A stretch of DNA of 64,000 nucleotides from the NCBI GenBank assembly GCA_037431425.1, contig GCA_037431425.1_4129.1; one strand, written 5' to 3'. The notes under the pieces were generated by a model. The model was not told the origin of the DNA, ran no database searches, and worked only from the letters and a program-made list of their open reading frames with translations. Numbering within the stretch: position 1 is the first letter of the stretch; each line of letters starts with the position of its first letter. This DNA is from a phage. This document shows positions 9,834 to 62,775 of this stretch, in pieces. The position numbers and the translations under genes were made by a program.

Positions 9834-9913
9834 TAAATAATACAGTAAGATGGCCTCCCCTCCATATCATGAGAGTATAGAGACTTGTTGGTTATCTTAC
9901 TTTTAAACAAACT

Positions 9914-9987: not shown

Positions 9988-10004
9988 CAAAATAAAGGCA
10001 CACT

Positions 10005-35379: not shown

Positions 35380-35388
35380 GGATTGATA

Positions 35389-35730: not shown

Positions 35731-35731
35731 G

Positions 35732-44117: not shown

Positions 44118-44455
44118 TGTTAACATTTTTTCAGTCAGATACAATGATTAGTATTACGTTGATTTATCTGTTTGGATTTTTCTTTTATCATGCACTAGTT
44201 GTAGTACTATGGTATTTTAAAAAGAATATAGTTTTCAAACTGTATCCTAAAGGAAACGTTTCATTACTTCTTTTCACTATTATCCAAGGTATCTTTGCAA
44301 TTTTTGGTATTACTGCACATTTAATTTATTGTGCTAATCCACATTTGAACTCAATATCACAATACATTGTATTTTTTGGATTACTAATTTGGGTACTAAT
44401 ATACGTAACTAATCTCATCATTAATGGTAGAGCTAAAATTCACGGGGACTTTTAA
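44117..44455 (+). CDS. small polytopic membrane protein family, 112 aa
   Basis: TAATG coupling; close paralogue of 43776. Confidence 0.75.
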   Translation: MLTFFQSDTMISITLIYLFGFFFYHALVVVLWYFKKNIVFKLYPKGNVSLLLFTIIQGIFAIFGITAHLIYCANPHLNSISQYIVFFGLLIWVLIYVTNLIINGRAKIHGDF

Positions 44456-48436: not shown

Positions 48437-48478
48437 AATTTCTCTCCCTCATTCATTATACTGTATTTAACCCAATTA
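48437..48478 (-). promoter_or_regulatory. conserved leader/promoter box of RCC1-like genes
   Basis: minus strand reads ..AAATACAGTATAATGAATGAGGGAGAGAAATTATG. Confidence 0.5.
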
Positions 48479-48480
48479 AG

Positions 48481-48503
48481 AAAAGCCAGTATCAAGTACT
48501 GGT
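48481..48503 (-). terminator. rho-independent terminator
   Basis: minus strand ACCAGTACTTGATACTGGC plus TTTT. Confidence 0.7.
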
Positions 48504-48509
48504 ATTTTA

Positions 48510-49859: not shown

Positions 49860-49900
49860 ATTTCCCTCCTTTATTCATTATACTATATTTAATACTAAAA
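49860..49900 (-). promoter_or_regulatory. conserved leader/promoter box
   Basis: minus strand GTATTAAATATAGTATAATGAATAAAGGAGGGAAATATG; TATAAT at 49877-49882; no -35. Confidence 0.55.
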
Positions 49901-49925
49901 GAAAAAGCCAGTACAGAGTACTGGC
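49901..49925 (-). terminator. rho-independent terminator
   Basis: GCCAGTAC..AGTACTGGC plus T-run on minus strand. Confidence 0.75.
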
Positions 49926-49931
49926 ATTATT

Positions 49932-51083
49932 TTAAATTGGTGAATCTTCAACAAATATAGTACTAGCAGTACCACCTGATACTGGGTTAGTACCACTTGA
50001 ATATATTTTGTTTCCATCTGTCATATATGTTTTACCATAGCAACTTTGGATTTTAACATCTTTGAAATTCAAATCAGGAGTAATAGATTTAGTGTAAGTT
50101 AATACGTTAGTAGTTGAACCTGTACTTAATTGTCCATAGTATGAAGTTGCAGAGTTATTACCAGCAACGTATACGCCAGTATCAGTAATAACAAAGTTCG
50201 AGTAATATCCGTACCCATATCCTATATCTAATATATTTCCTTGTGGTTGATTTACCACTGCTGTTGTCAATATTTGGGTTGTAGCCCCAGTACCAGTCGC
50301 TGCCTGACCATATGTTTGGTCACCACCTGTGTACACTGAAACAACTGACGTGCTTTTGTTTCTTGCAATACCTTGCACCATTCCATTAATTGTACTTATA
50401 AATGCAATAGTGTTAACAGTTGCTGGTAATCTGGATGACAATGTGAAGAATTTATAAGAAGTAGGACCGTCAGTGTTCCCATAAACTTCACCTGTGTAAT
50501 ATAATCTACCACTTTCAGCAATAAATGAACACATGTTTATACCTGCAATAATCCTTTTCGGTATCGCACCAGTTGGTATAATTGATTGTACTAAAGTAGA
50601 AAAACTACTAGTATAAGAATAATTACCAAGCTGTCCTCTTGTGTTATAACCACCACACCAAATGGTCCCATTACTCATAAGTATTGAAATGAAGTTATTT
50701 CCTAGTGATATTTCTGTAATTGTTCCTTGTGATTTGACTTGGTTAATAACGGTTTGCATAGAAGTCCATGCATTAACAGATGACGTACCCATACACACAT
50801 TGTATTGTTGTCCTGTGTATTGATATGTCCCATCTGACTTGTGAATCATTGTAGCATACTGACCACACCATACATCAGTGACATCAGATGCAGTTACAGT
50901 CCATGATGATCTGGCTATATTGTCACCTAAACCCAACTGACCATTTGAATTGTTACCACGGGTGTATAACTTACCATTACTACCCAATACCATAACCCAG
51001 TTATACCCTGCAACTAATTTTTTAATGGCAGCAGGGGATGGTGCAACATTCCCATAATCAAACATTCTAACAAAAGGTAACAT
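49932..51083 (-). CDS. RCC1-like repeat beta-propeller protein, 383 aa
   Basis: LYTRGNNSNGQLGLGDN and IWCGGYNTRGQLGN are canonical RCC1 blade motifs. Confidence 0.85.
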   Translation of the reverse strand: MLPFVRMFDYGNVAPSPAAIKKLVAGYNWVMVLGSNGKLYTRGNNSNGQLGLGDNIARSSWTVTASDVTDVWCGQYATMIHKSDGTYQYTGQQYNVCMGTSSVNAWTSMQTVINQVKSQGTITEISLGNNFISILMSNGTIWCGGYNTRGQLGNYSYTSSFSTLVQSIIPTGAIPKRIIAGINMCSFIAESGRLYYTGEVYGNTDGPTSYKFFTLSSRLPATVNTIAFISTINGMVQGIARNKSTSVVSVYTGGDQTYGQAATGTGATTQILTTAVVNQPQGNILDIGYGYGYYSNFVITDTGVYVAGNNSATSYYGQLSTGSTTNVLTYTKSITPDLNFKDVKIQSCYGKTYMTDGNKIYSSGTNPVSGGTASTIFVEDSPI

Positions 51084-51124
51084 ATTTCCCTCCTTTATTC
51101 ATTATACTATATTTAATACTAAAA
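51084..51124 (-). promoter_or_regulatory. conserved leader/promoter box
   Basis: identical to the 49860 copy. Confidence 0.55.
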
Positions 51125-51125
51125 G

Positions 51126-51150
51126 AAAAAGCCAGTACTTGAGTACTGGC
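51126..51150 (-). terminator. rho-independent terminator
   Basis: GCCAGTACTTGAGTACTGGC (two AGTACT) with flanking A and T runs. Confidence 0.75.
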
Positions 51151-51157
51151 TTTCTTA

Positions 51158-52348
51158 TTACAATTTTCTAGGTGTATCCAGAACATATCTATTTGTTTTA
51201 GGGCCACCATCATCATAAGTTCCGGTTGAATATATATTTTTCATATCAGCAGTTAGGAAAGTACGCAACGAACCGCGATATATTTTTATTTTATCATACA
51301 TAGAATATGTTATTTCTGACGGCAATGGACATGCAGTAAATTTACCAATGGTAGCATCATAACCAACACCCAATGTACCAGCATAACTACTCGCATTTAA
51401 ACCAGTTGCATATACACCTGCACTCGTAACTAGTATACTAGATTGTGCTGGGTATCCAGTATGGATTGAATAATAAGTACCAGGTGGCAATGTGGCACTA
51501 TTATTTCCTAAAACTCCATTAACATTGCTAGATGTAGTTTTATTTCCCCATGCTCCATTATTAGCTAATCCACCAACTAGAAACTGACGTGCTCCTGTAC
51601 TTGGATTCTCTACTAAAGCACTGACAGCACCAAATGAACAAACAGTATATTGTAATGTTTTTGTATATGTGGTACTTGGCTGATATAAAGTATATTCATT
51701 AAATGGTGTCCATGTGGTACTAGTACTTATGCCAGATGTAATACCACCAATATATAAATTATTTTGTTTATCAAACAACATTACACAGTTATATGTTGAC
51801 ATTATTTGTGCAATATCAACATCTGGTGTTACAGCTTTAACAAATGAGCCATCGGTTATTTGTTGAGTTTTTCCAGTACCATCTGCGAATTGTCTAGCAC
51901 TATTCCACCCTGTACTCCATATTGTATTATTATCCATTAAGAAAGTAAACCACGTAGTACCTGCATACATTTGTTTAATTGAAGTACTTGAACTTTGTTT
52001 GTACAAATTTTCAATATATTGGTTATAACTTAAAAACGTAGTAGTACTAGTTTCTAAACCAATATGACTACCATATCCACAATAAAAATAATTTAAGTCA
52101 TTATCTTGAACTAACAAAGTTCCTTGTGTCATCCAGCAATCTTTGATATTTTCTCTAATTAATGTCCACGACCTTACTGCATTATTATTTCCTCTACCAA
52201 ACTTCCCCCAACTATTACTGCCTCGTGCGTATAGTTGACCGTCGGTATAAAGTACAACAACCTCAGTATCAGTTGGTATTATTTTCTTAATTTGAAGTGG
52301 GACGGGTACAATATTCCCGTACTTAACTATTCTTCCAAAAGGTAACAT
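51158..52348 (-). CDS. RCC1-like repeat beta-propeller protein, 396 aa
   Basis: MLPFGRIVKYGNIVP; LYARGSNSWGKFGRGNN. Confidence 0.8.
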   Translation of the reverse strand: MLPFGRIVKYGNIVPVPLQIKKIIPTDTEVVVLYTDGQLYARGSNSWGKFGRGNNNAVRSWTLIRENIKDCWMTQGTLLVQDNDLNYFYCGYGSHIGLETSTTTFLSYNQYIENLYKQSSSTSIKQMYAGTTWFTFLMDNNTIWSTGWNSARQFADGTGKTQQITDGSFVKAVTPDVDIAQIMSTYNCVMLFDKQNNLYIGGITSGISTSTTWTPFNEYTLYQPSTTYTKTLQYTVCSFGAVSALVENPSTGARQFLVGGLANNGAWGNKTTSSNVNGVLGNNSATLPPGTYYSIHTGYPAQSSILVTSAGVYATGLNASSYAGTLGVGYDATIGKFTACPLPSEITYSMYDKIKIYRGSLRTFLTADMKNIYSTGTYDDGGPKTNRYVLDTPRKL

Positions 52349-52386
52349 ATCCCCTCCTTATTCATTATACTATATTTAATCAAAAA
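52349..52386 (-). promoter_or_regulatory. conserved leader/promoter box
   Basis: minus strand ..AAATATAGTATAATGAATAAGGAGGGGATATG. Confidence 0.55.
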
Positions 52387-52387
52387 T

Positions 52388-52410
52388 AAAAGCCAGTATC
52401 AAGTACTGGC
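52388..52410 (-). terminator. rho-independent terminator
   Basis: GCCAGTATCAAGTACTGGC. Confidence 0.7.
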
Positions 52411-52424
52411 ATAGTTTTATAATA

Positions 52425-53531
52425 TTATTTCGGCATCGTAATTGCAGACCATGAATTTGTAGTAATTGGACCTGGTATGTACACTAAAGAACCACATGCA
52501 TAAATTTGTCTATTCCCATCATACACAACACTAAAGTTAGTACAAGTAAACAATGACGAATTTAATGGATTGTAAGTATCTAATGTTAGTGTATTCACCC
52601 ACTTATTTGAACCTAGACCACCTGACCTACCAAATGCACCAGTACTGTATATCTTACCTTCAGTTGTTGCATATATATTAACATATGAAGTTGAACTGGA
52701 TTTAGCTATTTTATGTATCTTACTATCAATAGCACTGGAGTTAAATGTAAAAGGATATATTTCTACGTTAGTTGATGAACCATTACCGAGTTGACCAGAA
52801 TACTGCAAGCCAGCGACGTATGTACCACCACCTGAATATGCTATAGTACTAGTACTGTTACCTCCCATTATTTTAACACTAGTTAAACGACTTACTAAAG
52901 TAGTGTACTGACCTTTACTAACACCTAGTGAACCATAACTACTAGTACCACATCCAATAAGGTTACCGTTGGATGTTAAGATTAATGTGTTGTTTTGTGT
53001 ACCATATATATCAGCAACTTCATTTGTACCAGTATTCAGTACTAACACAAAAGCACTCTGTGAATTAGGATATCCACCACCGAGTGAATAGTTACTGTTC
53101 ATGCCTCTTCCATAAACCTTTGTACCACTAGCATCTACGTAGTGCATCGTATCTGAACCAATTGATATCATTTTAATATTAGATATGTGTGGAAATGAAG
53201 AAGTAACATCTAAACCACCCAAGGGGATTGCAGTATTACCCGTACCTAACTGAGAAGTAACTCCGTGCATTCTGAACTCTTCTCCTTTGAGATACAGAAG
53301 ATTGTACCCACCAGCCCATGCATCAGAAACACCCTCTGCAACTAATATCCAATTATTTTTTTCCGCTGTACCAACGGCATTCAACTGCCAATATGAATTA
53401 TCTCCACATCCATATAATGTACCATCACTATATAGTACGTACAAATTATTGGTTCCACAAAATACTTTCTTGATCGTTATACCTTCTGGAGCTATATTTC
53501 CATAGGTCATTATTCTTGCAAAAGGTAACAT
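52425..53531 (-). CDS. RCC1-like repeat beta-propeller protein, 368 aa
   Basis: MLPFARIMTYGNIAP; LYGCGDNSYWQLN, LIGCGTSSYGSLGV. Confidence 0.8.
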   Translation of the reverse strand: MLPFARIMTYGNIAPEGITIKKVFCGTNNLYVLYSDGTLYGCGDNSYWQLNAVGTAEKNNWILVAEGVSDAWAGGYNLLYLKGEEFRMHGVTSQLGTGNTAIPLGGLDVTSSFPHISNIKMISIGSDTMHYVDASGTKVYGRGMNSNYSLGGGYPNSQSAFVLVLNTGTNEVADIYGTQNNTLILTSNGNLIGCGTSSYGSLGVSKGQYTTLVSRLTSVKIMGGNSTSTIAYSGGGTYVAGLQYSGQLGNGSSTNVEIYPFTFNSSAIDSKIHKIAKSSSTSYVNIYATTEGKIYSTGAFGRSGGLGSNKWVNTLTLDTYNPLNSSLFTCTNFSVVYDGNRQIYACGSLVYIPGPITTNSWSAITMPK

Positions 53532-53570
53532 ATCCCCTCCTTATTCATTATACTATATTTAATACAAATA
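53532..53570 (-). promoter_or_regulatory. conserved leader/promoter box
   Basis: same box as other copies. Confidence 0.55.
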
Positions 53571-53572
53571 AG

Positions 53573-53595
53573 AAAAGCCAGTATCAAGTACTGGC
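53573..53595 (-). terminator. rho-independent terminator
   Basis: GCCAGTATCAAGTACTGGC. Confidence 0.7.
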
Positions 53596-53601
53596 CTATA
53601 T

Positions 53602-54771
53602 TTAAACTGGCGAATCTAATATAAATTCTAAACTACTAATGCCACCATATGTGACATCTGTTCCCGTGCTATATACAAAATTACCATCAGTTATATAAGT
53701 TCGGTTATAACTACCTGCCATCTGTGACTTACTATAATCAAACCCATCAGGTACGATTGCTTTGGTATATACTAATGCATTAGTAGATGTACCAATACCT
53801 AACATACCAGCTTGTGTAGATTGATTGTAGCCGCAACAATATATACCATCTGTTGTAGCAATAACTTGGTTATAATATGAAGTATTGTTAGCAATGCTTA
53901 CTACATCACCAGGTGGCATTAGTGATGCTGTTTGTACCTCAAATGCTCTATAATCTTTGAGAGAACCATCTTTCCCATCTGCTTGTGCACCAAATATTCT
54001 TGAACCACCATTTGCGATGATAGTTTTACCAGTAGGATCAGTGCCTATTGCCATTGCCATTGAAGTACCATTATTCACATAGTACTTTATATTAATTGTA
54101 TTACTTAAGCTGGTAGGAGCACCATAATATATATTATATAACTTACTTCCTGAACTTGTAACTGCATTGACTCTTCCTGTATAAAATAACCATCCTTGGT
54201 TTGTAACATAACCGTGCATTAAATTACTTGCAAACAATTTAACAGGTAATTGATTTGCTACGGTAGGAACAGTACTTTTGACGAATCTACCAGAAACATA
54301 GTTAATTGTTGTTCCATCACCCAACTGACCATCCGACCCTACTCCAGTACTCCATATTGTTTGGTCTGATAGTAACACACTTGTAGTCTGATAACTAATG
54401 GCTATATCTAATATTGGTAATGTTAATGTATTGAATATAGGCATAGCAGATGTCCATATTGATACTCCTGACCCTTTCATACCAACAGTTGTTGAACTTC
54501 CACTGTACCATATTTCATTATTGCTTTTCTTAACAACTATCGACGTGGCTCCCATCCAAAAATCTTCAACACCAGAAGTACTAAAAGTCCATGTAGTAAC
54601 AGTATTTTTGTGACCTAAACCCAAAATACCATATGCATTATCACCACGCACATATAAATCACCACTGTTTGTTAAAACAGCAACATTATCGTTGTTAGCA
54701 AGTATTTTTTTAATATTTGGTTTAGCAGGTGCAATATTCCCGTACTTAACCATCCTCGCAAAAGGTAACAA
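53602..54771 (-). CDS. RCC1-like repeat beta-propeller protein, 389 aa
   Basis: TTG start with GGAGA SD and non-conserved leader; LYVRGDNAYGILGLGHK, IWSTGVGSDGQLGDG. Confidence 0.8.
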   Translation of the reverse strand: MLPFARMVKYGNIAPAKPNIKKILANNDNVAVLTNSGDLYVRGDNAYGILGLGHKNTVTTWTFSTSGVEDFWMGATSIVVKKSNNEIWYSGSSTTVGMKGSGVSIWTSAMPIFNTLTLPILDIAISYQTTSVLLSDQTIWSTGVGSDGQLGDGTTINYVSGRFVKSTVPTVANQLPVKLFASNLMHGYVTNQGWLFYTGRVNAVTSSGSKLYNIYYGAPTSLSNTINIKYYVNNGTSMAMAIGTDPTGKTIIANGGSRIFGAQADGKDGSLKDYRAFEVQTASLMPPGDVVSIANNTSYYNQVIATTDGIYCCGYNQSTQAGMLGIGTSTNALVYTKAIVPDGFDYSKSQMAGSYNRTYITDGNFVYSTGTDVTYGGISSLEFILDSPV

Positions 54772-54810
54772 AATTAAATCTCCAAAATTAAAATAATTAT
54801 ATAGTATTTA

Positions 54811-54843
54811 CAAAAATACCAGTACATATTTCAGTACTGGTAT
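54811..54843 (-). terminator. rho-independent terminator
   Basis: ACCAGTAC-ATATTTCA-GTACTGGT. Confidence 0.65.
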
Positions 54844-54847
54844 ATTA

Positions 54848-55969
54848 TTAAAAGGGCAACGGTAACTCAGTAAAAGAACTTACGTCCGGTAAACCATACA
54901 TTGAATTAGCATCACCACAGTAATACCACTTCGTAGAATCATGTACCACCGATAAACGCAGTGCACATAACACTTCCTGTATGTCATTAAACACCATCGG
55001 GACTAACTCATATGTATCTGCAAATGAAGATACACCACCACTCGCATGAAAAGTATTTGTCCCAGCATAAAATAACTGATTAGTGTTCTTACCCACAGCA
55101 AATGTAATCAAATTCCCATCATTCTCCCATAAAGAAGAAAACTTATCAACACTACCAGAAAGCTCTGTGTAAGTACTCGTAATGGCATTAACCGCCGCCG
55201 CATTACCCATCTGTTTATTCAAGTTCTGCCCAGCAATAAAATATCTCGTTCGTGCACTAGAATCAGTATATAATAACCCAGTGTTCGTGGTCATCATTCC
55301 AATGTCCTTAATCGTCATACCAGGCTGTGAATAACTTAGATACGAAGTTAAATTAACATTATTACCCAACGAACCGTTAGAACTCATGCCACAACGATGT
55401 AATATACCACTTGTATCAACGTAGATAGTACTAACACCACTCGTATACAACTCTTGTACATTATTCGCAATAAACACAGCAGTCGCCTTATTACTAACCC
55501 CACCAAATGATAGGTTATTATCAAATCCCTTAGCGTATAATTGATTATTAGTAGTCAATAATCCAATCGTGTAATAAGACATTTTCATATCCCTTACTGT
55601 ACTCAAATCTACTGCCCCAAATTGATACGTAACATCTGTCCATTTGAAAATCTGTGCACTACCAACACCACCCGTTTCAAACCATTTGTCACCACAGTAC
55701 AATATGCGATTATCCTTAGTAAAGATAACTGTTAACGCTCCACTACCACACGCAAACTTTACATCACTTCTAACCTTCGTCCAATCACGTACATAGGTAG
55801 TGGTGTTATTACCTATACCTAACTTGCCATAACGGTTATAACCACGCACCCATAAATCACCACTCTTAGTAATTAATAGTAATGCGTCTCCTGTACTTAT
55901 TATTCGAAATCCCGATCTAGGATCAGGTACAATATTCCCGTACTTAACCATTCTCCCAAAAGGTAACAT
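54848..55969 (-). CDS. RCC1-like repeat beta-propeller protein, 373 aa
   Basis: MLPFGRMVKYGNIVP; LWVRGYNRYGKLGIGNN. Confidence 0.8.
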   Translation of the reverse strand: MLPFGRMVKYGNIVPDPRSGFRIISTGDALLLITKSGDLWVRGYNRYGKLGIGNNTTTYVRDWTKVRSDVKFACGSGALTVIFTKDNRILYCGDKWFETGGVGSAQIFKWTDVTYQFGAVDLSTVRDMKMSYYTIGLLTTNNQLYAKGFDNNLSFGGVSNKATAVFIANNVQELYTSGVSTIYVDTSGILHRCGMSSNGSLGNNVNLTSYLSYSQPGMTIKDIGMMTTNTGLLYTDSSARTRYFIAGQNLNKQMGNAAAVNAITSTYTELSGSVDKFSSLWENDGNLITFAVGKNTNQLFYAGTNTFHASGGVSSFADTYELVPMVFNDIQEVLCALRLSVVHDSTKWYYCGDANSMYGLPDVSSFTELPLPF

Positions 55970-56008
55970 AATTCCCTCCTTTATTCATTATATCATATTT
56001 ACCCAAAA
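55970..56008 (-). promoter_or_regulatory. conserved leader/promoter box (first gene of array)
   Basis: minus strand ..AAATATGATATAATGAATAAAGGAGGGAATTATG. Confidence 0.55.
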
Positions 56009-56013
56009 AACAC

Positions 56014-56042
56014 TTGACACCCTTTCAGTACTGTTGTACGAT
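56014..56042 (+). promoter_or_regulatory. promoter TTGACA-N17-TACGAT with AGTACT in spacer
   Basis: divergent from the RCC1 array; drives the small-gene array. Confidence 0.6.
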
Positions 56043-56067
56043 AGAAGGAATATTAGGAGAACTACAC

Positions 56068-56295
56068 ATGACAAATACCCTTAAGTACTACCTCAATACT
56101 CTGCCCGACCTAGAGTACGGGAAGTTTCTCGCAGATAGTTCGTGGCTGATTGAGCTAAAAACACATAACAGCCCTGGATGCACCCTTATGATGAACAATG
56201 CTATTGATACCCTTATAGTGAGTATTTTACATAGCAATATCTACAAGGATAACAATAAACAATTAACAAAAATATTAGTACTGCTATCTCTATGA
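56068..56295 (+). CDS. small tandem-array protein, 75 aa
   Basis: trimmed to ATG 56068 with AGGAGA SD; KYYLNTLP N-terminal pattern. Confidence 0.65.
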   Translation: MTNTLKYYLNTLPDLEYGKFLADSSWLIELKTHNSPGCTLMMNNAIDTLIVSILHSNIYKDNNKQLTKILVLLSL

Positions 56296-56495
56296 ATATC
56301 GAACAGTTCTACATCAATGCACTACCAACTAAAAGTCTTCAAGAAAGCCTACTGTATACACAAAAGAATTTTAAAAACTTCAAACGTTGCCCTAAACTAC
56401 TGAACTCGTACATGAATAATATCATAAGAAATGTTTTACAAGGAGAAGAAAGTATGCAATACTATCACATCATTATCCTTATATTGGAGTACTAA
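56292..56495 (+). CDS. small tandem-array protein, 67 aa
   Basis: ATGA coupling; EQFYINALP; ends ..ILILEY. Confidence 0.65.
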   Translation: MNIEQFYINALPTKSLQESLLYTQKNFKNFKRCPKLLNSYMNNIIRNVLQGEESMQYYHIIILILEY

Positions 56496-56496
56496 T

Positions 56497-56706
56497 ATGA
56501 ATACCGAACATAAAGAATTCTACACCAAATACCTCAGCAACGAAGAACAATTGTTTCTAAGAAGTGTATCACCTTTACGTATAGATACACCACACGCCAG
56601 AGAATGCTTTAATAATTGTATACGTAGTACCCTAGAAGCAATCGAATATAATAACAAAAATATTATGTACTCCAGTTTAATCGGACTAATATACTTCTAT
56701 GAATAA
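56497..56706 (+). CDS. small tandem-array protein, 69 aa
   Basis: GTACTAATATG junction; HKEFYTKYLS; paralogue of 59716. Confidence 0.65.
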   Translation: MNTEHKEFYTKYLSNEEQLFLRSVSPLRIDTPHARECFNNCIRSTLEAIEYNNKNIMYSSLIGLIYFYE

Positions 56707-56890
56707 TCATAAAGATTTCTATTGCAGTAAACTACACAAACAATACAGAGATTCATTTCCCAATGAACCTATGGATATGAATAGTCCCTTTTATAACTTT
56801 GACTTCAGACTGGAGACACGTTATGCAATAGAACATCAATTTCCTGAAACTAAGTACTTATCTATCATGAACCTCATCTTTAAGTTCTAA
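56699..56890 (+). CDS. small tandem-array protein, 63 aa
   Basis: HKDFYCSKL; paralogue of 59918. Confidence 0.6.
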   Translation: MNNHKDFYCSKLHKQYRDSFPNEPMDMNSPFYNFDFRLETRYAIEHQFPETKYLSIMNLIFKF

Positions 56891-56942
56891 AAGGTGCACC
56901 AAGGACAGAGTATTTTAATATAGTAAGGCTAATTACACTACC

Positions 56943-57128
56943 ATGAATCACATAAGCTACTACTACCAACAACTATCCGACAGAGACAAGTACAGTCACA
57001 ACTCCCATGTGTGGTACTACAAACGCGGCAGTATAAGAGACAAACATCATTACTTCAGTGCTGCTATAACAGAAGTACTAACAACTAAGTACACGTACAG
57101 AGCAGTACTGAAACTTATCTCTATATAA
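56943..57128 (+). CDS. small tandem-array protein (LKLISI subtype), 61 aa
   Basis: ends AVLKLISI. Confidence 0.65.
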   Translation: MNHISYYYQQLSDRDKYSHNSHVWYYKRGSIRDKHHYFSAAITEVLTTKYTYRAVLKLISI

Positions 57129-57136
57129 GGTACTAT

Positions 57137-57322
57137 ATGAATACATTTGAGTACTATACCAATAAACTATCTATGCCTGAAAGATCTCATCTCTATGTGT
57201 GGAGAAATGCGTATAAAAACGGAAATAAACTTATACAAAGAAATTCCCTTACAGTGTGTACCAATTTAATTAACGCAGAGTACCGCACATATATTGAAGT
57301 ACTGAAACTCATCTCTATCTAA
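57137..57322 (+). CDS. small tandem-array protein (LKLISI subtype), 61 aa
   Basis: MNTFEYYTNKL..EVLKLISI. Confidence 0.65.
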   Translation: MNTFEYYTNKLSMPERSHLYVWRNAYKNGNKLIQRNSLTVCTNLINAEYRTYIEVLKLISI

Positions 57323-57330
57323 GGTACTCT

Positions 57331-57510
57331 ATGCAAGAATTCTATATCTATAATCTCCAGCACAAAGATAGATACAACTATAATCAATTCCAAAGGTACT
57401 ACACCGTCGGGAACATCAAAGATAAAAAACGATACCTACTATCATGTACTGTAGATGCACAAAACAAAAAGTACACGTACAGAGAAGTACTGAAACTAAT
57501 TTCTATTTGA
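57331..57510 (+). CDS. small tandem-array protein (LKLISI subtype), 59 aa
   Basis: hand-translated MQEFYIYNLQ..EVLKLISI; below track cut-off. Confidence 0.6.
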   Translation: MQEFYIYNLQHKDRYNYNQFQRYYTVGNIKDKKRYLLSCTVDAQNKKYTYREVLKLISI

Positions 57511-57518
57511 GGTAATAT

Positions 57519-57707
57519 ATGAATACTTTTGAGTACTACTTCAATAAACTAAATTCCATAGAACAAAATATGTACAATTCATATATTAAGTACTATCAAT
57601 CATCTGCACCTGGAATTAAAAATATATCAATAAAGATTATCACTAACCGTGTACTGACATCTGAACGTTATATGTATATGGATGCACTGAAACTCATCTC
57701 TATGTAA
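57519..57707 (+). CDS. small tandem-array protein (LKLISI subtype), 62 aa
   Basis: MNTFEYYFNKL..DALKLISM. Confidence 0.65.
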   Translation: MNTFEYYFNKLNSIEQNMYNSYIKYYQSSAPGIKNISIKIITNRVLTSERYMYMDALKLISM

Positions 57708-57717
57708 GGAATAAACT

Positions 57718-57897
57718 ATGAACAATTTCTATATAGAACACATAACCATAAAAGACCGTTTCATGTACGACACCTTCGTGAAGTACTACAACCTCGCAAC
57801 TAACAGTACTAAAAATATCAATCTCAATAGCTGCATACACCAAGCACTAACAAAAGAAAATCCCTTCAGGGAAATCCTTGCACTTGCATCTGTATAA
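57718..57897 (+). CDS. small tandem-array protein (LKLISI subtype), 59 aa
   Basis: hand-translated MNNFYIEHIT..EILALASV; below track cut-off. Confidence 0.55.
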   Translation: MNNFYIEHITIKDRFMYDTFVKYYNLATNSTKNINLNSCIHQALTKENPFREILALASV

Positions 57898-57907
57898 AGG
57901 AATTCAA

Positions 57908-58573
57908 ATGAAACTTAATCCACAAAGTAAACAATACCTTAAGCACTTTAAGTACCTCAACAGTATTCAAGCAGAATCTATTACATCTTCTTATACTTAT
58001 CACCCGAATATACTAAAGAAACGAAATAAAAAGAATAAATCCAGTACAGATCTAGTATCAAAGAACCTCAAATCGTACTTGAAGAAAAATAATATCTCTA
58101 TTCATTGTGCGAATATCTATAATACTGATTTAAAAGCATTGAGTACTAATACCAGCACAAAAACACTAAAGAATACATCTATCTATATCTATATGCACCT
58201 GGATAATATCCCGTGCACTATAATTCTATCTTTCGGGAATGTATACTTCTTCGGGAATTGTAATACCACCCATGATATCCGTACAGCACAATTCCAAATC
58301 GGAGATATGTACTGCATGGGTTCAGAAAAAATACACGATAACATGCATTTCTTCCAACAGCAACGTACAGAAGAAACTAATACAGTACTAGAATTCCTCA
58401 AAGAACTTCAAAACAAAGAATTATCTCAAGAAGAACTATTCATGTACAGCACCGTAATCAATAATCCAGAACTCTACAAAAACGCGTACAATCTAACAAA
58501 ACATGTGCAGGAACTTATTAGTACTAATAAGAAAATTCATCACCTCATGACATATATTGCAAACTATGCATAA
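57908..58573 (+). CDS. long-form EE-x-F-x-ST family protein, 221 aa
   Basis: trimmed to ATG 57908 with AAGGA SD; basic N-terminus; motif SQEELFMYSTV. Confidence 0.7.
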   Translation: MKLNPQSKQYLKHFKYLNSIQAESITSSYTYHPNILKKRNKKNKSSTDLVSKNLKSYLKKNNISIHCANIYNTDLKALSTNTSTKTLKNTSIYIYMHLDNIPCTIILSFGNVYFFGNCNTTHDIRTAQFQIGDMYCMGSEKIHDNMHFFQQQRTEETNTVLEFLKELQNKELSQEELFMYSTVINNPELYKNAYNLTKHVQELISTNKKIHHLMTYIANYA

Positions 58574-58751
58574 AGAATACTACCAAAATAAACTCCCAAT
58601 GCATCTACAACACCTTGTACCAACAGAACCATTGGGTATAGAAAAAGACTACGAAAAAGACTACTTCATTAAGTGCACCAAATCCTCAATAGATATTGAG
58701 GACTATAATCGAGTACTGTATCACATCCTTTTACTAATATATAAGTACTAA
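58566..58751 (+). CDS. small tandem-array protein (IYRY subtype), 61 aa
   Basis: MHKEYYQNKLPMHLQHL..LLLIYKY. Confidence 0.65.
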   Translation: MHKEYYQNKLPMHLQHLVPTEPLGIEKDYEKDYFIKCTKSSIDIEDYNRVLYHILLLIYKY

Positions 58752-58752
58752 T

Positions 58753-58947
58753 ATGAATAATGAATACTATAAAGAATACTACCAAAATAAACTCCCTATG
58801 TATCTACAACACCTTATACCAACAAAACCTATTGGCATAAAAGATCATGAAAAAATAATGTTCCAACAATGTTCTAAGTACATCCTAATAGACGATCACA
58901 ATCCATATATGCTGTACTATATAATAATGCTAACATTCAGGTACTAA
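58753..58947 (+). CDS. small tandem-array protein (IYRY subtype), 64 aa
   Basis: KEYYQNKLPMYLQHL..IMLTFRY. Confidence 0.65.
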   Translation: MNNEYYKEYYQNKLPMYLQHLIPTKPIGIKDHEKIMFQQCSKYILIDDHNPYMLYYIIMLTFRY

Positions 58948-58948
58948 T

Positions 58949-59131
58949 ATGCACAAAGAATACTACACACAATTTCTCCCCAGTATATTTGAACACTACG
59001 CCAGATATAAAGTCCCACTGGATAACGATTTGGCAGTACTCGGATTCAATAACTGCATAGAACGCAGTATAGAAAATAGTAGTTCATATGACCAACTATA
59101 TAACACTATCCTACTTATATTCAGGTACTAA
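58949..59131 (+). CDS. small tandem-array protein (IYRY subtype), 60 aa
   Basis: MHKEYYTQFLP..ILLIFRY. Confidence 0.65.
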   Translation: MHKEYYTQFLPSIFEHYARYKVPLDNDLAVLGFNNCIERSIENSSSYDQLYNTILLIFRY

Positions 59132-59132
59132 T

Positions 59133-59321
59133 ATGTTTAAAGAATACTACGCAAAATATTTCCCAATGTATCTCAGAACTAATCTATTAGATAAACCTCG
59201 CGATATCAATGCTCAAAACGATAAAGTGTACTTTATTATGTGCACTAAAGCATGTATACTAGATCATGACAGCTACCATCGAGTACTCTATCATACACTG
59301 TACCTAACATTCGTGTACTAA
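59133..59321 (+). CDS. small tandem-array protein (IYRY subtype), 62 aa
   Basis: trimmed to ATG 59133; MFKEYYAKYFPMYL..LYLTFVY. Confidence 0.65.
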   Translation: MFKEYYAKYFPMYLRTNLLDKPRDINAQNDKVYFIMCTKACILDHDSYHRVLYHTLYLTFVY

Positions 59322-59331
59322 AGAGAACATT

Positions 59332-59526
59332 ATGCAACACAAGTTCAAAGAATTCTACTTAAGCCGCCTGGAACTAAACTCCCAAATGCTTATACCACTA
59401 AAACCAATAGATATCAAGGATAAGAAAAATACCCAACAATTCATCTACCATACACAGTGTGCTATCTCCCCAGATTATAATACATATAAATTGTACTATA
59501 TCATCGCCCTAATACTCAGGTACTAA
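59332..59526 (+). CDS. small tandem-array protein (IYRY subtype), 64 aa
   Basis: FKEFYLSRL..IALILRY. Confidence 0.65.
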   Translation: MQHKFKEFYLSRLELNSQMLIPLKPIDIKDKKNTQQFIYHTQCAISPDYNTYKLYYIIALILRY

Positions 59527-59528
59527 TC

Positions 59529-59714
59529 ATGTATAAAGAATACTACACACAATTTGTTAAAGAAAACTACAAATATGCCGTCCCCATAAAACCCTTAAAT
59601 GCTAATGACCCAAATACTATATTCCTGTTTAATGACGCAATACGTACAGTACTCAATACTAAAGATGAACAAGTGCAGTACGTATTCTTACTTTTACTTA
59701 TATACAGACACTAA
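59529..59714 (+). CDS. small tandem-array protein (IYRY subtype), 61 aa
   Basis: MYKEYYTQFV..LLLLIYRH. Confidence 0.65.
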   Translation: MYKEYYTQFVKENYKYAVPIKPLNANDPNTIFLFNDAIRTVLNTKDEQVQYVFLLLLIYRH

Positions 59715-59715
59715 T

Positions 59716-59925
59716 ATGAATAAAGTACATAAAGAATTCTATTCCAGATACCTCAGCCTATCAGAACAAATGTTTATAAGATCTACACCACCATTAAGTA
59801 CTGATACTTACTTCGGTAGAGTATGCTACAATAAATGTGTACAAATGACTTTAAACGCAAACGACAATAATAACAGTACTAACCTGTACTCAGGCATCAT
59901 AGGTATACTATTTCTATATGATTAA
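59716..59925 (+). CDS. small tandem-array protein, 69 aa
   Basis: trimmed to ATG 59716; HKEFYSRYLS; paralogue of 56497. Confidence 0.65.
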   Translation: MNKVHKEFYSRYLSLSEQMFIRSTPPLSTDTYFGRVCYNKCVQMTLNANDNNNSTNLYSGIIGILFLYD

Positions 59926-60100
59926 AGAATATAAAGACTTCTACATAAGAAAACTAACATTCGTCCCCGTAAGAATATACAAAGAATGCGACCCAAGATT
60001 ATACCTATGGCACTTCAATGAGTGCATAAAAGATTCTATATACCCTAAGAACTATAAAGAACAATTGTGCTCAGTACTAACACTAGTACTATCATATTAA
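59918..60100 (+). CDS. small tandem-array protein, 60 aa
   Basis: YKDFYIRKL; paralogue of 56699. Confidence 0.6.
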   Translation: MIKEYKDFYIRKLTFVPVRIYKECDPRLYLWHFNECIKDSIYPKNYKEQLCSVLTLVLSY

Positions 60101-60113
60101 TAGAGATAATACT

Positions 60114-60326
60114 ATGAATAAAGAACATAAAAACTTCTATATAAGTAAACTAAAAGAAAATGAACAAGTATGGATTAGATCTATAATAGAACTGGCATTT
60201 AATAGATACGCACTGAATAGATGTACACAGATTGCTATAGACCCTTATCCCATTGAAGAGGATGAAAAGGATGTACAGTACAATCAGTACTACTATATCT
60301 TAATGCTTATATATAGACCTATATAG
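60114..60326 (+). CDS. small tandem-array protein, 70 aa
   Basis: HKNFYISKL..LMLIYRPI; last gene before the noncoding region. Confidence 0.65.
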   Translation: MNKEHKNFYISKLKENEQVWIRSIIELAFNRYALNRCTQIAIDPYPIEEDEKDVQYNQYYYILMLIYRPI

Positions 60327-60340
60327 GAAACTACACAGGC

Positions 60341-60423
60341 GAATTGCTAAAATTCAGCCTGCTATACGTCTGAATTGTTAAAATTCAGCCTGCTATACGT
60401 CTGAATTGTTAAAATTCAGCCTG
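60341..60423. repeat. 31-bp direct tandem repeat, 2.7 copies
   Basis: GAATTG(C/T)TAAAATTCAGCCTGCTATACGTCT at 60341, 60372, and partial at 60403; each unit contains the inverted repeat TGAATT..AATTCA. Confidence 0.9.
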
Positions 60424-60467
60424 GACAAATGCGATCACCAGGATTCTCTCCAGGCTAAACACCGTAG

Positions 60468-60534
60468 TCATAAGTAATCATAAGTAATCATATATAAACA
60501 TTTATATGAGCATTTATAAGCATTTATAAGCACC
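60468..60534. repeat. short tandem decamers
   Basis: CATAAGTAAT x2.5, then GCATTTATAA x2, each block flanked by ACCGTAG. Confidence 0.75.
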
Positions 60535-61027
60535 GTAGAATCACAGAATGATTATATATGATTCAGTACTGCCCCAAAAGTATTCAGTACTGAAGAATTA
60601 CCCCTGAATGATTCAGTACTGATATGCCACTAAGTAGGCAGAGGAAGTCTGCCGTACTTTGTAGTTTCCAAGCTCCTTTTCCATTTTGCAAATTACATCA
60701 AATGTAATCAAAAGTAATCACGTAATGATTAGTACTGAAATATTAGTTTCATCTTTTTTCAAATACCTTTTTACCCTTCGGGGTAAATGTATTTTTACCC
60801 ATTTACCTTTGGGGTAAAATCCCATTACCCCTTGAGGCTCCAGCAAAAAGTTGGAAAGTACTCCATCCTAAATCTCGATCCTAAAAATTTTGGAGTACCT
60901 ATGAAATAAAAGTTGGATCTTCGAAAGTTGAAATTTACGTTGGGACGTTTATGATTTGTGGGATATAATGATGTTTGTAGTCGGGTAGTTCTCAAGAATA
61001 TCAGTACTGAATGGTGAAAGAAAGTTA

Positions 61028-61055
61028 TTGACATTATGATTCAGTACTGTATAAT
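61028..61055 (+). promoter_or_regulatory. promoter TTGACA-N16-TATAAT with AGTACT in spacer, inside ORF-free region
   Basis: read directly; downstream has GNRA hairpin CTGTC-GTGA-GACAG and no ORF. Confidence 0.6.
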
Positions 61056-61435
61056 GTTCTACATAGAGAGATGAGTTGCTGCGAACAATTCATTTACTCT
61101 ACCTCCTGTCGTGAGACAGTACAGAAAAGATAGTTCCTCCTGTGGTGGTACATCTTTTTGAACCTCATATGAAAATCGTAATAACAGTACTGGTATTAAC
61201 AGAATGGTATCAGTACTGACTTTAATCTAATACATTATACCACCAGCTTGTGCTGGTGGATTCCCTCTAACAGTATTCAGTACTACATGATAGTCTTCAT
61301 CCTCCTAGGGTAACATAGTGAGGGCTATTGTGGGAGTACTGAATACTCCTTTCAAAAGATAGAATAATGGTATAGTACCGACGGATTTTGGGCGTAGTTA
61401 CCCTGGGTGTATTTTGGACGTAGATATGTCTAGCC

Positions 61436-61578
61436 CTCCAGAAGTCTGGAAGTAAAGATGGCTATCTATCTAGACGGCTAAACGGCTAGATTTCTAGATG
61501 GCTGTATGGCTAGACGTTTGGATGGCTAAACGGCTAAACGGCTAGATGGTTACACGTCTGGAAGTATAGACGGCTAAA
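61436..61578. repeat. iteron block: 8 GGCTA cores bracketed by direct repeats GTCTGGAAGTA
   Basis: GGCTA at 61460, 61476, 61484, 61508, 61524, 61532, 61540, 61572 (consensus ACGGCTAAA/ACGGCTAGA); GTCTGGAAGTA at 61444-61454 and 61556-61566. Confidence 0.85.
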
Positions 61579-61927
61579 TCAAAATTTTTATTTTGTTTTT
61601 CCAATAGTTCCCCTACCGCGTGAGGATATTTTTTCCCCGCAGTATCTGGAGTTAGATTTTTCTGAATCTGGAATCATTATCTAATAAACTGGGGGCAATG
61701 TCAACCGCCTGGATGAATATTTTTAAAAAATAATCTAGTACTAAATTTTGGGCGTAACTATGCACCCGGTGGGCTTGAGTCTTTCTCGACTTGATGAAAT
61801 AATTATATCAGTACTGAAAAAATAAAGCAATACCCTAAACGCAAAAAAAATTTAATTAATTTGCTTGCTATTCTGGGCCGTACTATGGTACTATTAATTC
61901 AGTACTGAGAAAGTGCTTTTACCTGCT

Positions 61928-61999
61928 AGGGTGCGGGAGTGTATCCTTTTTAAATTTTATGAATTTTGGGCAGATCTCCGCACCCTGTGGGTTAGTGCC
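61928..61999. repeat. GC-rich dyad element (long hairpin), copy A
   Basis: AGGGTGCGGGAG ... CTCCGCACCCT arms around an AT-rich 45-nt core; shares the 16-mer GGTGCGGGAGTGTATC with the 63898 copy. Confidence 0.7.
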
Positions 62000-62210
62000 T
62001 TGTGTCCGGCTTATGTAGTAATTATACGCTTTTTCAGTACTGAGTCAATACCTAAAAACAAAATAATTGAAAATAATTTAACGCGTTTAAACGGCCCGTA
62101 AAGCCCTGGAATGATTAGAATGGTGCAAATGTATAGCTTAGGTGTAATATCTCGTTAGAATGCGACTGAGGCCGTTTTACGGGGTATAGGGATGATTTAG
62201 TGGATTGATT

Positions 62211-62298
62211 CAGTACTGAATAATAGTACTCCTATATAGAAAGATAGTTCCCCTGGATGGTTGCAGTACTGAATAATAGTACTCCTATATAGAAAGAA
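62211..62298. repeat. 35-bp direct repeat x2
   Basis: CAGTACTGAATAATAGTACTCCTATATAGAAAGA at 62211 and 62264. Confidence 0.85.
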
Positions 62299-62329
62299 AA
62301 CTATTTTAAAAAGTATTTGTAGAAAGTAC

Positions 62330-62388
62330 TTGCACCGTACTGATAAAAGCGTATAATGTTTTACATCGAGAGCGGGAGCACTTCCCGC
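62330..62388 (+). promoter_or_regulatory. conserved promoter plus 5' hairpin cassette, copy 1
   Basis: TTGCAC-N16-TATAAT, then TTTTACATCGAGAGCGGGAGCACTTCCCGC (stem GCGGGA/TCCCGC). Confidence 0.7.
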
Positions 62389-62412
62389 TACACATTAAGA
62401 GAGATTAAAACG

Positions 62413-62775
62413 ATGGCGACTCAAATCAATAAAATTATTGCTAACCTGGTTAACTTCCGTGAAGAGATGAAAGGTCTTCCGGCTGAAACGGTAAAAATTC
62501 ACATTTCAGCTTATCGGGAACTTATTGCAATGTTACCGCTTAAGCGTGAACAATACGCCGCTACCGTGATGCTTGATGCGATGATCAATAAGATGATCGC
62601 CAGTGATTTAACGATGGTTTATCAGTACATGGGCGAAAATTTCGCGGTGTCTGGTAAGCCAGTACCAGGGATGGCAACTACTGAGGAATTGCACGGTTTA
62701 AATTTAAAACAAGATGCATGGGATAATATGCCTCGTTTCCTGGTATGGGCTGACAGTGGCAAAATTTACAAATAA
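62413..62775 (+). CDS. hypothetical protein, 120 aa
   Basis: trimmed to ATG 62413 (MATQINK) downstream of the cassette; higher GC than the rest of the window. Confidence 0.75.
   Translation: MATQINKIIANLVNFREEMKGLPAETVKIHISAYRELIAMLPLKREQYAATVMLDAMINKMIASDLTMVYQYMGENFAVSGKPVPGMATTEELHGLNLKQDAWDNMPRFLVWADSGKIYK

What the first reader, a model, noticed from the sequence alone, without database searches (positions are those of the whole stretch)
56068..60326. Tandem array of about 18 paralogous 59-75-aa genes, in two subtypes, interrupted by one 221-aa gene
Eighteen small ORFs lie head to tail over 4.3 kb. Many are joined by the junction ..GGTACTAATATG.., and others by ATGA overlaps. They share an N-terminal (H)KE(F/Y)Y..KL pattern. 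One subtype ends in ..VLKLISI (five copies, 56943-57897). The other ends in ..L(L/I)(I/F)(Y/R)Y (58566-60326 and 56292-56890).

The pairs 56497/56699 and 59716/59918 are parallel duplicates, which indicates segmental duplication. Two members were below the ORF-track cut-off and were found by hand translation. Such a large expansion of one mini-protein family at a genome end, driven by an early-type promoter, suggests an arms-race function such as anti-defence or host takeover. No function is known.
Basis: seen in the sequence. Interest (0 to 1): 0.7.

Follow-up and report, generated by a model that had tools for sequence, protein, structure and literature searches.

The report
Early small-protein family in jumbo phage
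A 350-kb E. coli phage carries, just before its terminal repeat, one tightly packed operon of about 18 related 60-residue helical proteins; the genes are real, conserved and vary in number between phages, but their role is unknown and they already sit unnamed in about 36 public phage genomes.

Summary
Window 56068-60326 (+) contains 18 small ORFs (59-75 aa) and one 221-aa ORF, head to tail, with gaps of -8 to +13 nt and one of 52 nt.

Sixteen ORFs are clear paralogues: 11 of subtype B (PHROG 11711) and 5 of subtype A. Profile comparison links A to B (88% probability) and the second ORF to B (77%). The first ORF is only a possible member. The 221-aa gene is unrelated.

The window comes from an Asteriusvirus (121Q/PBECO4-like jumbo coliphage). 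Orthologues in relatives are intact, with dN/dS 0.31-0.39. The divergent phage JNE01 keeps the same array although only 17% of the DNA still aligns. These are therefore protein-coding genes.

Copy number is 15-23 per genome. The paralogues are old (15-55% identity). An exhaustive search found the family only in this phage group. AlphaFold gives a confident four-helix fold (pLDDT 90) with no informative structural match.

The array fills the last 4.3 kb of the unique genome and ends 306 bp before the 21-kb terminal repeat. Its conserved promoter belongs to the same sigma-70-like class as the promoters in the repeat.

Best reading: an early operon of host-directed small binding proteins. That function is untested.

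The parts
56014..56042 (+). Sigma-70-like promoter of the array: -35 TTGACA (56014-56019), 17-nt spacer containing CAGTACTG (56026-56033), -10 TACGAT (56037-56042)
   Evidence: Scan. The alignment of eight genomes, including the divergent JNE01, shows it conserved. Same architecture as at least 14 promoters in the fEgEco12 terminal repeat. Activity not tested.
56055..56059 (+). Shine-Dalgarno AGGAG, 8 nt before the first ATG
   Evidence: Sequence; conserved as AAGGAGAA in all relatives.
56068..56295 (+). m01, 75 aa; possible remote member only
   Evidence: ORF. Orthologues at 76-87% identity, dN/dS 0.14-0.41. hhalign against the family is not significant.
56292..56495 (+). m02, 67 aa; third divergent subtype
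   Evidence: hhalign against subtype B: 77%, E 2e-5. dN/dS 0.44-0.81.
56497..56706 (+). m03, 69 aa; subtype B, close paralogue of m17
   Evidence: PHROG 11711, E 1e-13. 48% identical to m17.
56699..56890 (+). m04, 63 aa; subtype B
   Evidence: HMM B, E 4e-26.
56943..57897 (+). m05-m09: five subtype A genes (56943-57128, 57137-57322, 57331-57510, 57519-57707, 57718-57897), 59-62 aa, mostly basic (pI 9.3-9.6; m09 7.9)
   Evidence: HMM A, E 1e-31 to 1e-33. pI. 28 homologous clusters, all from this phage group.
57908..58573 (+). 221-aa gene (PHROG 29152) between the A and B blocks; not a family member
   Evidence: PHROG, E 2e-115. No profile similarity to A or B. AF2 pLDDT 44.7, unusable. Kept at the same place in JNE01.
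58566..60326 (+). m11-m19: nine subtype B genes (58566-58751, 58753-58947, 58949-59131, 59133-59321, 59332-59526, 59529-59714, 59716-59925, 59918-60100, 60114-60326), 60-70 aa
   Evidence: HMM B, E 2e-19 to 1e-27. PHROG 11711. AF2 model of m11: pLDDT 90, four helices.
60341..60433 (+). Three 31-nt direct repeats in the 306-bp spacer between the array and the terminal repeat
   Evidence: family D4. Role unknown.
60633..60653 (+). Position equivalent to the physical left terminus and start of the direct terminal repeat (AGTAGGCAGAGGAAGTCTGCC); also a hairpin
   Evidence: Matches base 1 of fEgEco12, BF17 and ELP-22. fEgEco12 termini were verified by PhageTerm and restriction digests (PMC13070987). 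Hairpin.

Best explanation
The array is a single early operon of a jumbo coliphage (genus Asteriusvirus). It encodes a lineage-specific family of about 17-18 distinct 60-residue four-helix proteins.

Proposed mechanism:
1. Host sigma-70 RNA polymerase starts at the conserved promoter at 56014-56042.
2. A 4.3-kb, G-poor and weakly structured mRNA is made.
3. Its 19 cistrons are translated one after another, through stop/start overlaps or short spacers that carry AGG(T/A) ribosome-binding motifs.
4. The products share a conserved hydrophobic core and an N-terminal K-E-[FY]-Y motif, but differ on the remaining surface.
5. I infer that they act in the cytoplasm as small binding modules against host proteins (takeover or counter-defence). 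Different paralogues would cover different targets or target variants. The set is reshaped by gene gain, loss and recombination between members.

Shown: the genes are real, paralogous, under purifying selection, variable in number, confined to this phage group, placed next to the terminal repeat, and headed by an early-class promoter.

Inferred: the timing of expression, coupled translation, and the whole host-directed function.
For: **Coding**
- All orthologues are intact in five relatives. Pooled dN/dS is 0.31-0.39.
- JNE01 keeps 16 members plus the 224-aa gene in the same order, although only 723 of 4357 nt still align.
- Identical residues in paralogues are often encoded by different codons.
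- AF2 gives pLDDT 90 and pTM 0.74.

**Family**
-.

**Early class**
- The promoter is conserved and of the same type as at least 14 promoters in the terminal repeat. That repeat holds about 56 small same-strand genes.
- The neighbouring RCC1-like virion genes use a different upstream element that lacks a -35.
- C-ending codons at Y-ending pairs are preferred as in the repeat's genes: 0.5 in the array and 0.43 in the repeat, against about 0.25 elsewhere.
- In the related phage CBB, RpoD-like promoters mark the presumed early host-takeover region of short ORFs (PMC5259590).

**Operon and coupling**
- Gaps are -8 to 13 nt, with AGG motifs upstream of the starts.
- No terminator-like site was predicted inside the array.
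- Sense-RNA MFE is -10.1 kcal/mol per 100 nt, against -15.7 for other genes at the same G+C.

**Not virion-associated**
- The virion proteome table of phAPEC6, as far as the excerpt read shows, goes from gp347 to the adjacent RCC1-like gp549 and gp551, with no array gene listed.

**Scaffold and surface**
- Conserved columns are mostly hydrophobic, plus K3, E4 and Q15. Loops and helix surfaces vary.

**Turnover**
- There are 15-23 members per genome and about 26 orthogroups in seven genomes.
Against: - There is no expression, translation or phenotype data for any member.
- No homologue, domain or fold has a known function.
- dN/dS is below 1 and no higher than in neighbouring ORFans, so there is no signature of positive selection.
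- The paralogues are old, so this is not a recent 'accordion' expansion.
- The array is rich in codons that are rare in E. coli: AGA 19, ATA 42 and CTA 35 per 1000. The terminal-repeat genes avoid them: 3.8, 6.5 and 7.4. This fits poorly with immediate-early translation on host tRNAs alone.
- The -10 element is imperfect (TACGAT here, TACTAT in most relatives).
- The fully hydrophobic last helix could instead indicate oligomerisation or membrane association.
Confidence: 0.4

Rival explanations
1. The small proteins act on the phage itself rather than on the host. They could be small regulators or nucleic-acid-binding proteins that time the early-to-late switch. They could also act on the nearby terminal-repeat boundary, in concatemer processing, end protection or packaging initiation.
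For: - The array ends 306 bp from the terminal-repeat start.
- The region around it is full of repeats and the palindrome TTCAGTACTGAA, which also lies in early promoter spacers.
- Four of the five subtype A members are basic, pI 9.3-9.6.
- No small terminase subunit was identified in BF17 (PMC10059673).
Against: - No DNA-binding domain or fold was detected.
- Subtype B members are neutral or acidic.
- A regulator or packaging factor would not be expected in 15-23 divergent copies with presence/absence variation between close relatives.
Confidence: 0.15
2. The small proteins are assembly chaperones or accessory factors for the seven neighbouring RCC1-like virion 'hair' proteins, with paralogues matched to paralogues.
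For: - They lie directly next to a tandem family of seven RCC1-like genes (47291-55969, - strand).
- Relatives of those genes are virion-associated in phAPEC6.
- This synteny is kept in JNE01.
- Both families vary in copy number.
Against: - The two sets are divergently transcribed.
- They use different promoter classes: TTGACA plus CAGTACTG for the array, against a -10-only element after a hairpin for each RCC1 gene.
- Their codon usage differs.
- Fibre chaperones are normally encoded downstream of, and co-transcribed with, their fibre gene (own knowledge).
Confidence: 0.1
3. The ORFs are incidental. The region works at the DNA or RNA level, as repeats near the terminal repeat or as a long non-coding transcript, and the ORFs are not translated into functional proteins.
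For: - The sense strand has an unusual composition (A 40%, C 20%, G 13%), and GTAC is six-fold over-represented.
- Third-position usage deviates from every other gene class.
- The sense RNA is unusually unstructured.
Against: - dN/dS is 0.31-0.39.
- All ORFs are intact in seven other genomes.
- The ORF architecture and the protein profile are kept in JNE01, where only 17% of the nucleotides align.
- Ribosome-binding motifs precede the starts.
- The predicted fold is confident.
- There is no Rfam match.
Confidence: 0.03

Closest known systems
PHROG 11711 and PHROG 29152 (phage orthologous groups of unknown function); GenBank 'hypothetical proteins' such as 121Q gp249-265
   Same: Subtype B members match PHROG 11711 (E 1e-11 to 1e-27). 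The 221-aa gene matches PHROG 29152 (E 2e-115). The same genes are annotated in 121Q, SHEFM2K, ELP-22 and fEgEco12.
   Different: Subtype A, m01 and m02 belong to no PHROG. No source links the subtypes into one family, notes the position next to the terminal repeat, or gives a function. Many members are not annotated at all in BF17, PBECO4, SP27 and Sharanji.
Host-takeover module of Bacillus phage SPO1, a cluster of about 24-26 small early genes in the terminal redundancy (PMC6873191, PMC10531801)
   Same: A block of many small genes at or next to a long terminal repeat, read from host-sigma promoters. The products are mostly under 100 aa. The characterised SPO1 members bind host proteins such as RNA polymerase, HU and ClpCP.
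   Different: SPO1 genes lie inside the repeat and are not paralogues of one another. Here the array lies just outside the repeat and is one family in one operon. There is no sequence or fold similarity. Function is shown for SPO1 and not here.
Terminal multigene families of large eukaryotic DNA viruses, such as ASFV MGF100/110/360/505 and poxvirus terminal families and gene 'accordions' (own knowledge)
   Same: Tandem paralogues near the genome ends, with copy number differing between close isolates, and birth-and-death turnover.
   Different: Those families have documented roles in host range and immune evasion. Here there is no phenotype, the proteins are much smaller, the paralogues are old, and there is no sign of recent amplification.
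Anti-CRISPR / anti-defence operons (Acr-Aca type) (own knowledge)
   Same: Small proteins with no detectable homologues, in a tight operon behind a strong promoter that contains a palindromic motif.
   Different: No HTH (Aca-like) regulator is found in or beside the array. Acr loci hold unrelated proteins rather than 17 paralogues. There is no match in PADLOC beyond noise. Inhibition is not tested.
[quoted passage not shown]
   Same: Large tandem expansions of one small protein in jumbo phages have been described as a route of genome growth.
   Different: The fold differs: a four-helix protein with no zinc ribbon. The 121Q array meant in PMC5646251 is not identified in the text and has more than 30 members. 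The present one has 16 in 121Q, so it may be a different array.

Membership tests
PHROG 11711 (unknown function) | Significant match to the family profile | tested here: met
   The four subtype B members scanned matched: m03, m11, m16 and m19, E 1e-11 to 1e-27. The three subtype A members scanned, m01 and m02 gave no match.
PHROG 29152 (unknown function) | Significant full-length match to the family profile | tested here: met
   The 221-aa gene matches at E 2e-115 over residues 1-220.
One paralogous family comprising all 18 small ORFs | Pairwise or profile similarity above chance between every subgroup | tested here: inconclusive
   A against B: 88%, E 2.8e-6. m02 group against B: 77%, E 2e-5. 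m01 group: 3-8% probability, P 0.004-0.016, colinear but not significant.
SPO1-type host-takeover module | Located within the terminal redundancy | tested here: not met
   The array ends 306 bp before the repeat start at window 60633.
SPO1-type host-takeover module | Small genes behind host-sigma early promoters | tested here: met
   By sequence only. TTGACA-17-TACGAT is conserved and of the same class as the repeat's promoters. Activity not measured.
SPO1-type host-takeover module | Products shut off or redirect host functions | not testable with these tools
   Needs expression and infection experiments.
Terminal multigene family of a large DNA virus | Tandem paralogues close to a genome terminus or terminal repeat | tested here: met
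Terminal multigene family of a large DNA virus | Copy number differs between related isolates | tested here: met
   15, 16, 18, 20, 21, 22 and 23 members in seven related genomes, and about 26 orthogroups.
Terminal multigene family of a large DNA virus | Role in host range or immune evasion | not testable with these tools
   No phenotype data found.
Acr-Aca type anti-defence operon | Associated helix-turn-helix autoregulator (Aca) | tested here: not met
   No HTH or other Pfam or NCBIfam domain in the ten proteins scanned (nine small members and the 221-aa gene).
Acr-Aca type anti-defence operon | Inhibition of a defence system | not testable with these tools
   Needs plaque assays on defence-carrying strains.
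Alpha-solenoid (HEAT/ENTH-like) repeat proteins | Significant structural match | tested here: not met

The most novel reading that the evidence does not exclude
The array is a phage counterpart of the terminal multigene families of large eukaryotic DNA viruses. It would be an arsenal in which one four-helix scaffold, previously undescribed, is diversified into 15-23 versions per genome. Each version would neutralise a different host defence or housekeeping protein, and the members carried would help set which E. coli and Salmonella strains a given phage can infect.
Probability: 0.25. Interest if true: 0.75.

Novelty: new variant of a known kind. Interest (0 to 1): 0.45.

Why it matters
Jumbo phages consist mostly of genes with no known function, and they are being developed for therapy. 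This is a compact and easily deleted 4.3-kb block. It holds about 3% of the phage's genes, has a confident new fold, an early-type promoter, and presence/absence variation between close relatives.

If the products target host proteins, the array would provide a family of natural inhibitors built on one scaffold. It could also help explain host-range differences among Asteriusviruses. If it has no such role, it is still a clear example of genome growth by tandem duplication.

The work also fixes where this window sits on the physical genome: at the junction between the unique region and the terminal repeat.

Tried and rejected
**Database and fold searches with no usable result**
- Pfam, NCBIfam and PADLOC gave nothing above noise. 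PADLOC's PtuB and Cas6b hits at E about 2e-3 cover fragments of larger proteins, and I treat them as chance.
- PDB sequence profiles for subtype A, subtype B and the 221-aa gene gave nothing.
- The afdb50 library was not available.
- Rfam gave no match in 55800-62500.

**The 221-aa gene**
- Its C-terminal helical part looks like the family by eye, but hhalign gives 0.2-1% probability. I rejected the idea that it is an extended family member.
- Its AF2 model has pLDDT 44.7, so I did not use it.

**Wider distribution**
- The search for related loci with the family alignment failed because there was no conserved stretch. With the 221-aa protein it returned only 121Q.
- The terminal repeat of fEgEco12 contains no family member.

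**Composition**
- I considered that the odd composition is a mirror image of a strand-specific mutation bias. I rejected this because four-fold sites of + and - strand genes are alike and nearly symmetric (A about equal to T, C about equal to G). The array instead shows a T-to-C shift.
- I considered adaptation to host tRNAs. I rejected this because AGA, ATA and CTA are enriched.

**Other**
- One literature search was badly chosen and gave nothing.
- The dN/dS control on the RCC1-like genes failed because of paralogy. Only the terminal-repeat genes served as a control.


Full report
**What is there.** On the + strand between 56068 and 60326 lie 19 consecutive ORFs: 18 of 59-75 aa and one of 221 aa at 57908-58573. 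Successive genes overlap by 4 or 8 nt or are 1-13 nt apart. One spacer, between m04 and m05, is 52 nt. Most starts are preceded by AGG(T/A), either in the spacer or in the last codons of the gene before. The exact junction GTACTAATATG occurs four times in the window, always at array junctions. No terminator-like site was predicted inside the array.

**Is it one family?**
- All-against-all BLASTP gives strong matches within two groups, for example m03/m17 at 48% identity and m11/m12 at 57%.
- HMMs built from each group recover 11 members of subtype B (m03, m04, m11-m19) and 5 of subtype A (m05-m09), and nothing else in the 64-kb window.
- With deeper alignments (65 and 29 sequences), A and B align over their whole length at 88% probability, E 2.8e-6.
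- The m02 group aligns with B at 77%, E 2e-5.
- The m01 group has the same length and end motifs but is not significantly related.
- The 221-aa gene is unrelated by profile comparison.
m03 and m17 are close paralogues, and both overlap the next gene by 8 nt. However, m04 and m18 share only 21% identity.

**Where the window comes from.** The region matches 34 phage records at 87-91% nucleotide identity. All are Escherichia or Salmonella jumbo phages of the genus Asteriusvirus, such as 121Q, PBECO4 and phAPEC6. The same genes are annotated as hypothetical proteins in several of them, for example 121Q gp249-265. They are largely missing from the annotation of others.

**Are they genes?**
- Every window member that has an orthologue in five relatives is intact there. 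Pooled Nei-Gojobori dN/dS is 0.31-0.39. That is within the range of four neighbouring small genes in the terminal repeat, 0.06-0.59.
- The divergent phage JNE01 has the same layout: RCC1-like genes on the - strand, then 16 family members with a 224-aa gene in the middle, then a noncoding stretch of about 2 kb. Only 723 of 4357 nt align between the two arrays. Conservation therefore lies in the proteins and not in nucleotide repeats.
- About 30-40% of the residues that are identical between paralogues use different codons.
- AlphaFold2 on the subtype B alignment gives a confident model: pLDDT 90.2, pTM 0.74, with helices at 2-7, 12-15, 28-43 and 47-60.

**Distribution and turnover.**
- Word-indexed searches of 5.8 billion proteins found 71 clusters for subtype B and 28 for subtype A. 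All those that carry a name come from this phage group or from E. coli assemblies, and the long contigs are about 350 kb.
- An exhaustive HMM search of 1.84 billion representatives found only 31 clusters, all 41-69 aa long, most of them 59-69.
- tblastn found the family in 36 of 50,697 phage records.
- Genomes carry 15-23 members. At 62% identity or more there are about 26 orthogroups among seven Asteriusviruses, roughly 15 of them nearly universal. JNE01's 16 members fall into separate groups.
- BF17 and fEgEco12 also have members in a different order.
- The family is therefore old and is reshaped by loss, gain and recombination. It is not a recent amplification.

**Position on the genome.**
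- fEgEco12 has termini confirmed by PhageTerm and restriction digests, with 20,993-bp direct terminal repeats (PMC13070987).
- Its first bases, AGTAGGCAGAGGAAGTCTGCC, match window 60633. The BF17 and ELP-22 records start at the same base.
- In fEgEco12 the right repeat starts at 353,741, which is 303 bp after the last array gene.
- The array is therefore the last 4.3 kb of the unique region, and the window runs from it into the terminal repeat.
- 'At a genome end' is thus only partly right. The array is about 21 kb from the physical right end and directly upstream of the repeat. In concatemers it lies directly upstream of the left-end genes.

**Expression class (inferred).**
- The 100-bp region upstream of m01 is conserved in all eight genomes compared. 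It contains TTGACA, a 17-nt spacer with CAGTACTG, TAC(T/G/A)AT, and AAGGAGAA.
- The terminal repeat of fEgEco12 holds about 56 small genes on the same strand. It also holds at least 14 promoters of the form TTGACA-N8-(Y)AGTACTG followed by TATAAT or GCATAAT.
- By contrast, each neighbouring RCC1-like gene is preceded by a hairpin and by AAATATAGTATAATGAATAAAGGAGG, with no -35 element. Relatives of these genes are virion proteins in phAPEC6.
- In the related phage CBB, RpoD-like promoters mark the presumed early host-takeover region of short ORFs that continues into the terminal repeat. Late genes there have T4-like promoters (PMC5259590).
- The array and the repeat's genes share a preference for C-ending codons at Y-ending pairs: about 0.5 and 0.43, against about 0.25 in other genes.
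- I therefore class the array as early, with roughly 75% confidence.
- One caveat: the array is rich in AGA, ATA and CTA, which the repeat's genes avoid.

**Function.** Nothing known matches.
- There is no Pfam, NCBIfam or PADLOC family.
- There is no PDB sequence relative.
- The proteins are Tyr-rich (11%, against 5.8% elsewhere) and poor in Gly (1.2%).
- Conserved positions are mostly hydrophobic, plus K3, E4 and Q15. The loop at 24-33, the turn at 43-50 and the helix surfaces vary.
- No array gene appears in the part of the phAPEC6 virion proteome table that was read.

The most economical reading is a set of cytoplasmic small binding proteins made early and directed at host targets, as in the SPO1 host-takeover module (PMC6873191, PMC10531801). 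Here it takes the form of a diversified multigene family. I give this 0.4.

The rivals are:
- action on the phage's own DNA ends or gene timing (0.15);
- helper proteins for the RCC1-like hair proteins (0.1);
- a non-coding role (0.03).

**Verdict.** This is a real, conserved and uncharacterised small-protein family. Its members are already in public records as hypothetical proteins, and part of it is catalogued as PHROG 11711. New here are:
- the link between the subtypes;
- the confident fold;
- the exact position next to the terminal repeat;
- the shared early promoter class;
- the copy-number survey.

The finding is moderately interesting and easy to test experimentally.

Noticed in passing
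window 60633 onwards (60327-62355 is noncoding): The window crosses from the unique region into the direct terminal repeat. Position 60633 equals base 1 of fEgEco12, BF17 and ELP-22. The first 1.7 kb of the repeat has no convincing ORF, but it has a perfect TTGACA-16-TATAAT promoter at 61028-61055 and strong promoter-like sites on the - strand at 62048 and 61704.
   Followed up: yes
whole window; densest at 60557-62280: The palindrome (T)TCAGTACTGA(A) is very frequent. CAGTACTG occurs 43 times in the window, 12 of them between 60564 and 62271. In a subset it sits in the spacer of sigma-70-like promoters directly before the -10 (7267, 7647, 8406, 24153, 61042, 63851, and the array promoter). 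Elsewhere it stands alone or forms hairpin stems. It looks like the operator of an unknown regulator, or part of the early promoter itself.
   Followed up: partly
whole window: GTAC is over-represented throughout: 506 observed, against 199 expected from base composition and 347 from a Markov model. In the array it is six-fold over-represented (71 against 12). This is unusual for a 4-base palindrome in a phage.
   Followed up: partly
window 56068-60326: The sense strand of the array is A 40%, C 20%, G 13%, T 27%. It is the only gene block in the window with C exceeding G on the coding strand. Third positions shift from T to C and A. The sense RNA is predicted to be weakly folded (-10.1 kcal/mol per 100 nt), against -15.7 for other genes of equal G+C and -17.4 for its own antisense. 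The cause is unknown. Possibilities are selection for an open polycistronic mRNA or for Rho or RNase behaviour.
   Followed up: partly
window 61458-61577: A run of about 15 head-to-tail 8-bp units (ACGGCTAR / ATGGCTAR) lies about 830 bp inside the terminal repeat. It recalls the short-repeat arrays beside the T7 terminal repeat (own knowledge).
   Followed up: no
window 60341-60433: Three 31-nt direct repeats (GAATTGYTAAAATTCAGCCTGCTATACGTCT), each able to form a small hairpin, lie between the array and the terminal-repeat start.
   Followed up: no
window 47291-55969 (- strand): Seven tandem RCC1-like (WD40_RLD) paralogues of 373-449 aa. Six of the seven have their own upstream hairpin (GCCAGTACT..GTACTGGC) and a conserved AAATATAGTATAATGAATAAAGGAGG element. 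The gene at 53602-54753 has a different upstream sequence. Relatives are virion proteins in phAPEC6 and probably form the 'hairs'.
   Followed up: partly
window 6153-9988: Six tRNA genes: Ser-UGA, Arg-UCU, Ser-GCU, Met or possibly Ile2 (CAU), Asn-GUU and Thr-UGU. They are interleaved with CAGTACTG-type promoters at about 7252, 7632 and 8391. AGA and ATA, which two of these tRNAs may read, are especially common in the array.
   Followed up: partly
window 5089-6670, 10005-10779, 35041-36076, 43776-44455: Further small tandem paralogue sets of 2-3 genes each. This phage therefore duplicates genes in tandem at many places.
   Followed up: no
public records MW822008.1 (BF17), KC295538.1 (PBECO4), LC494302.1 (SP27), OR545507.1 (Sharanji): Many array members are not annotated in these records. 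For example, only 4-10 features lie under a match that holds about 20 ORFs. Gene counts of these phages are therefore not comparable.
   Followed up: partly
protein P0121: A 221-aa protein identical to the window's is recorded under an Escherichia coli assembly (WJW27_002794, contig of 125,904 bp). The window may therefore come from a phage genome present in a bacterial assembly rather than from a phage isolate.
   Followed up: no
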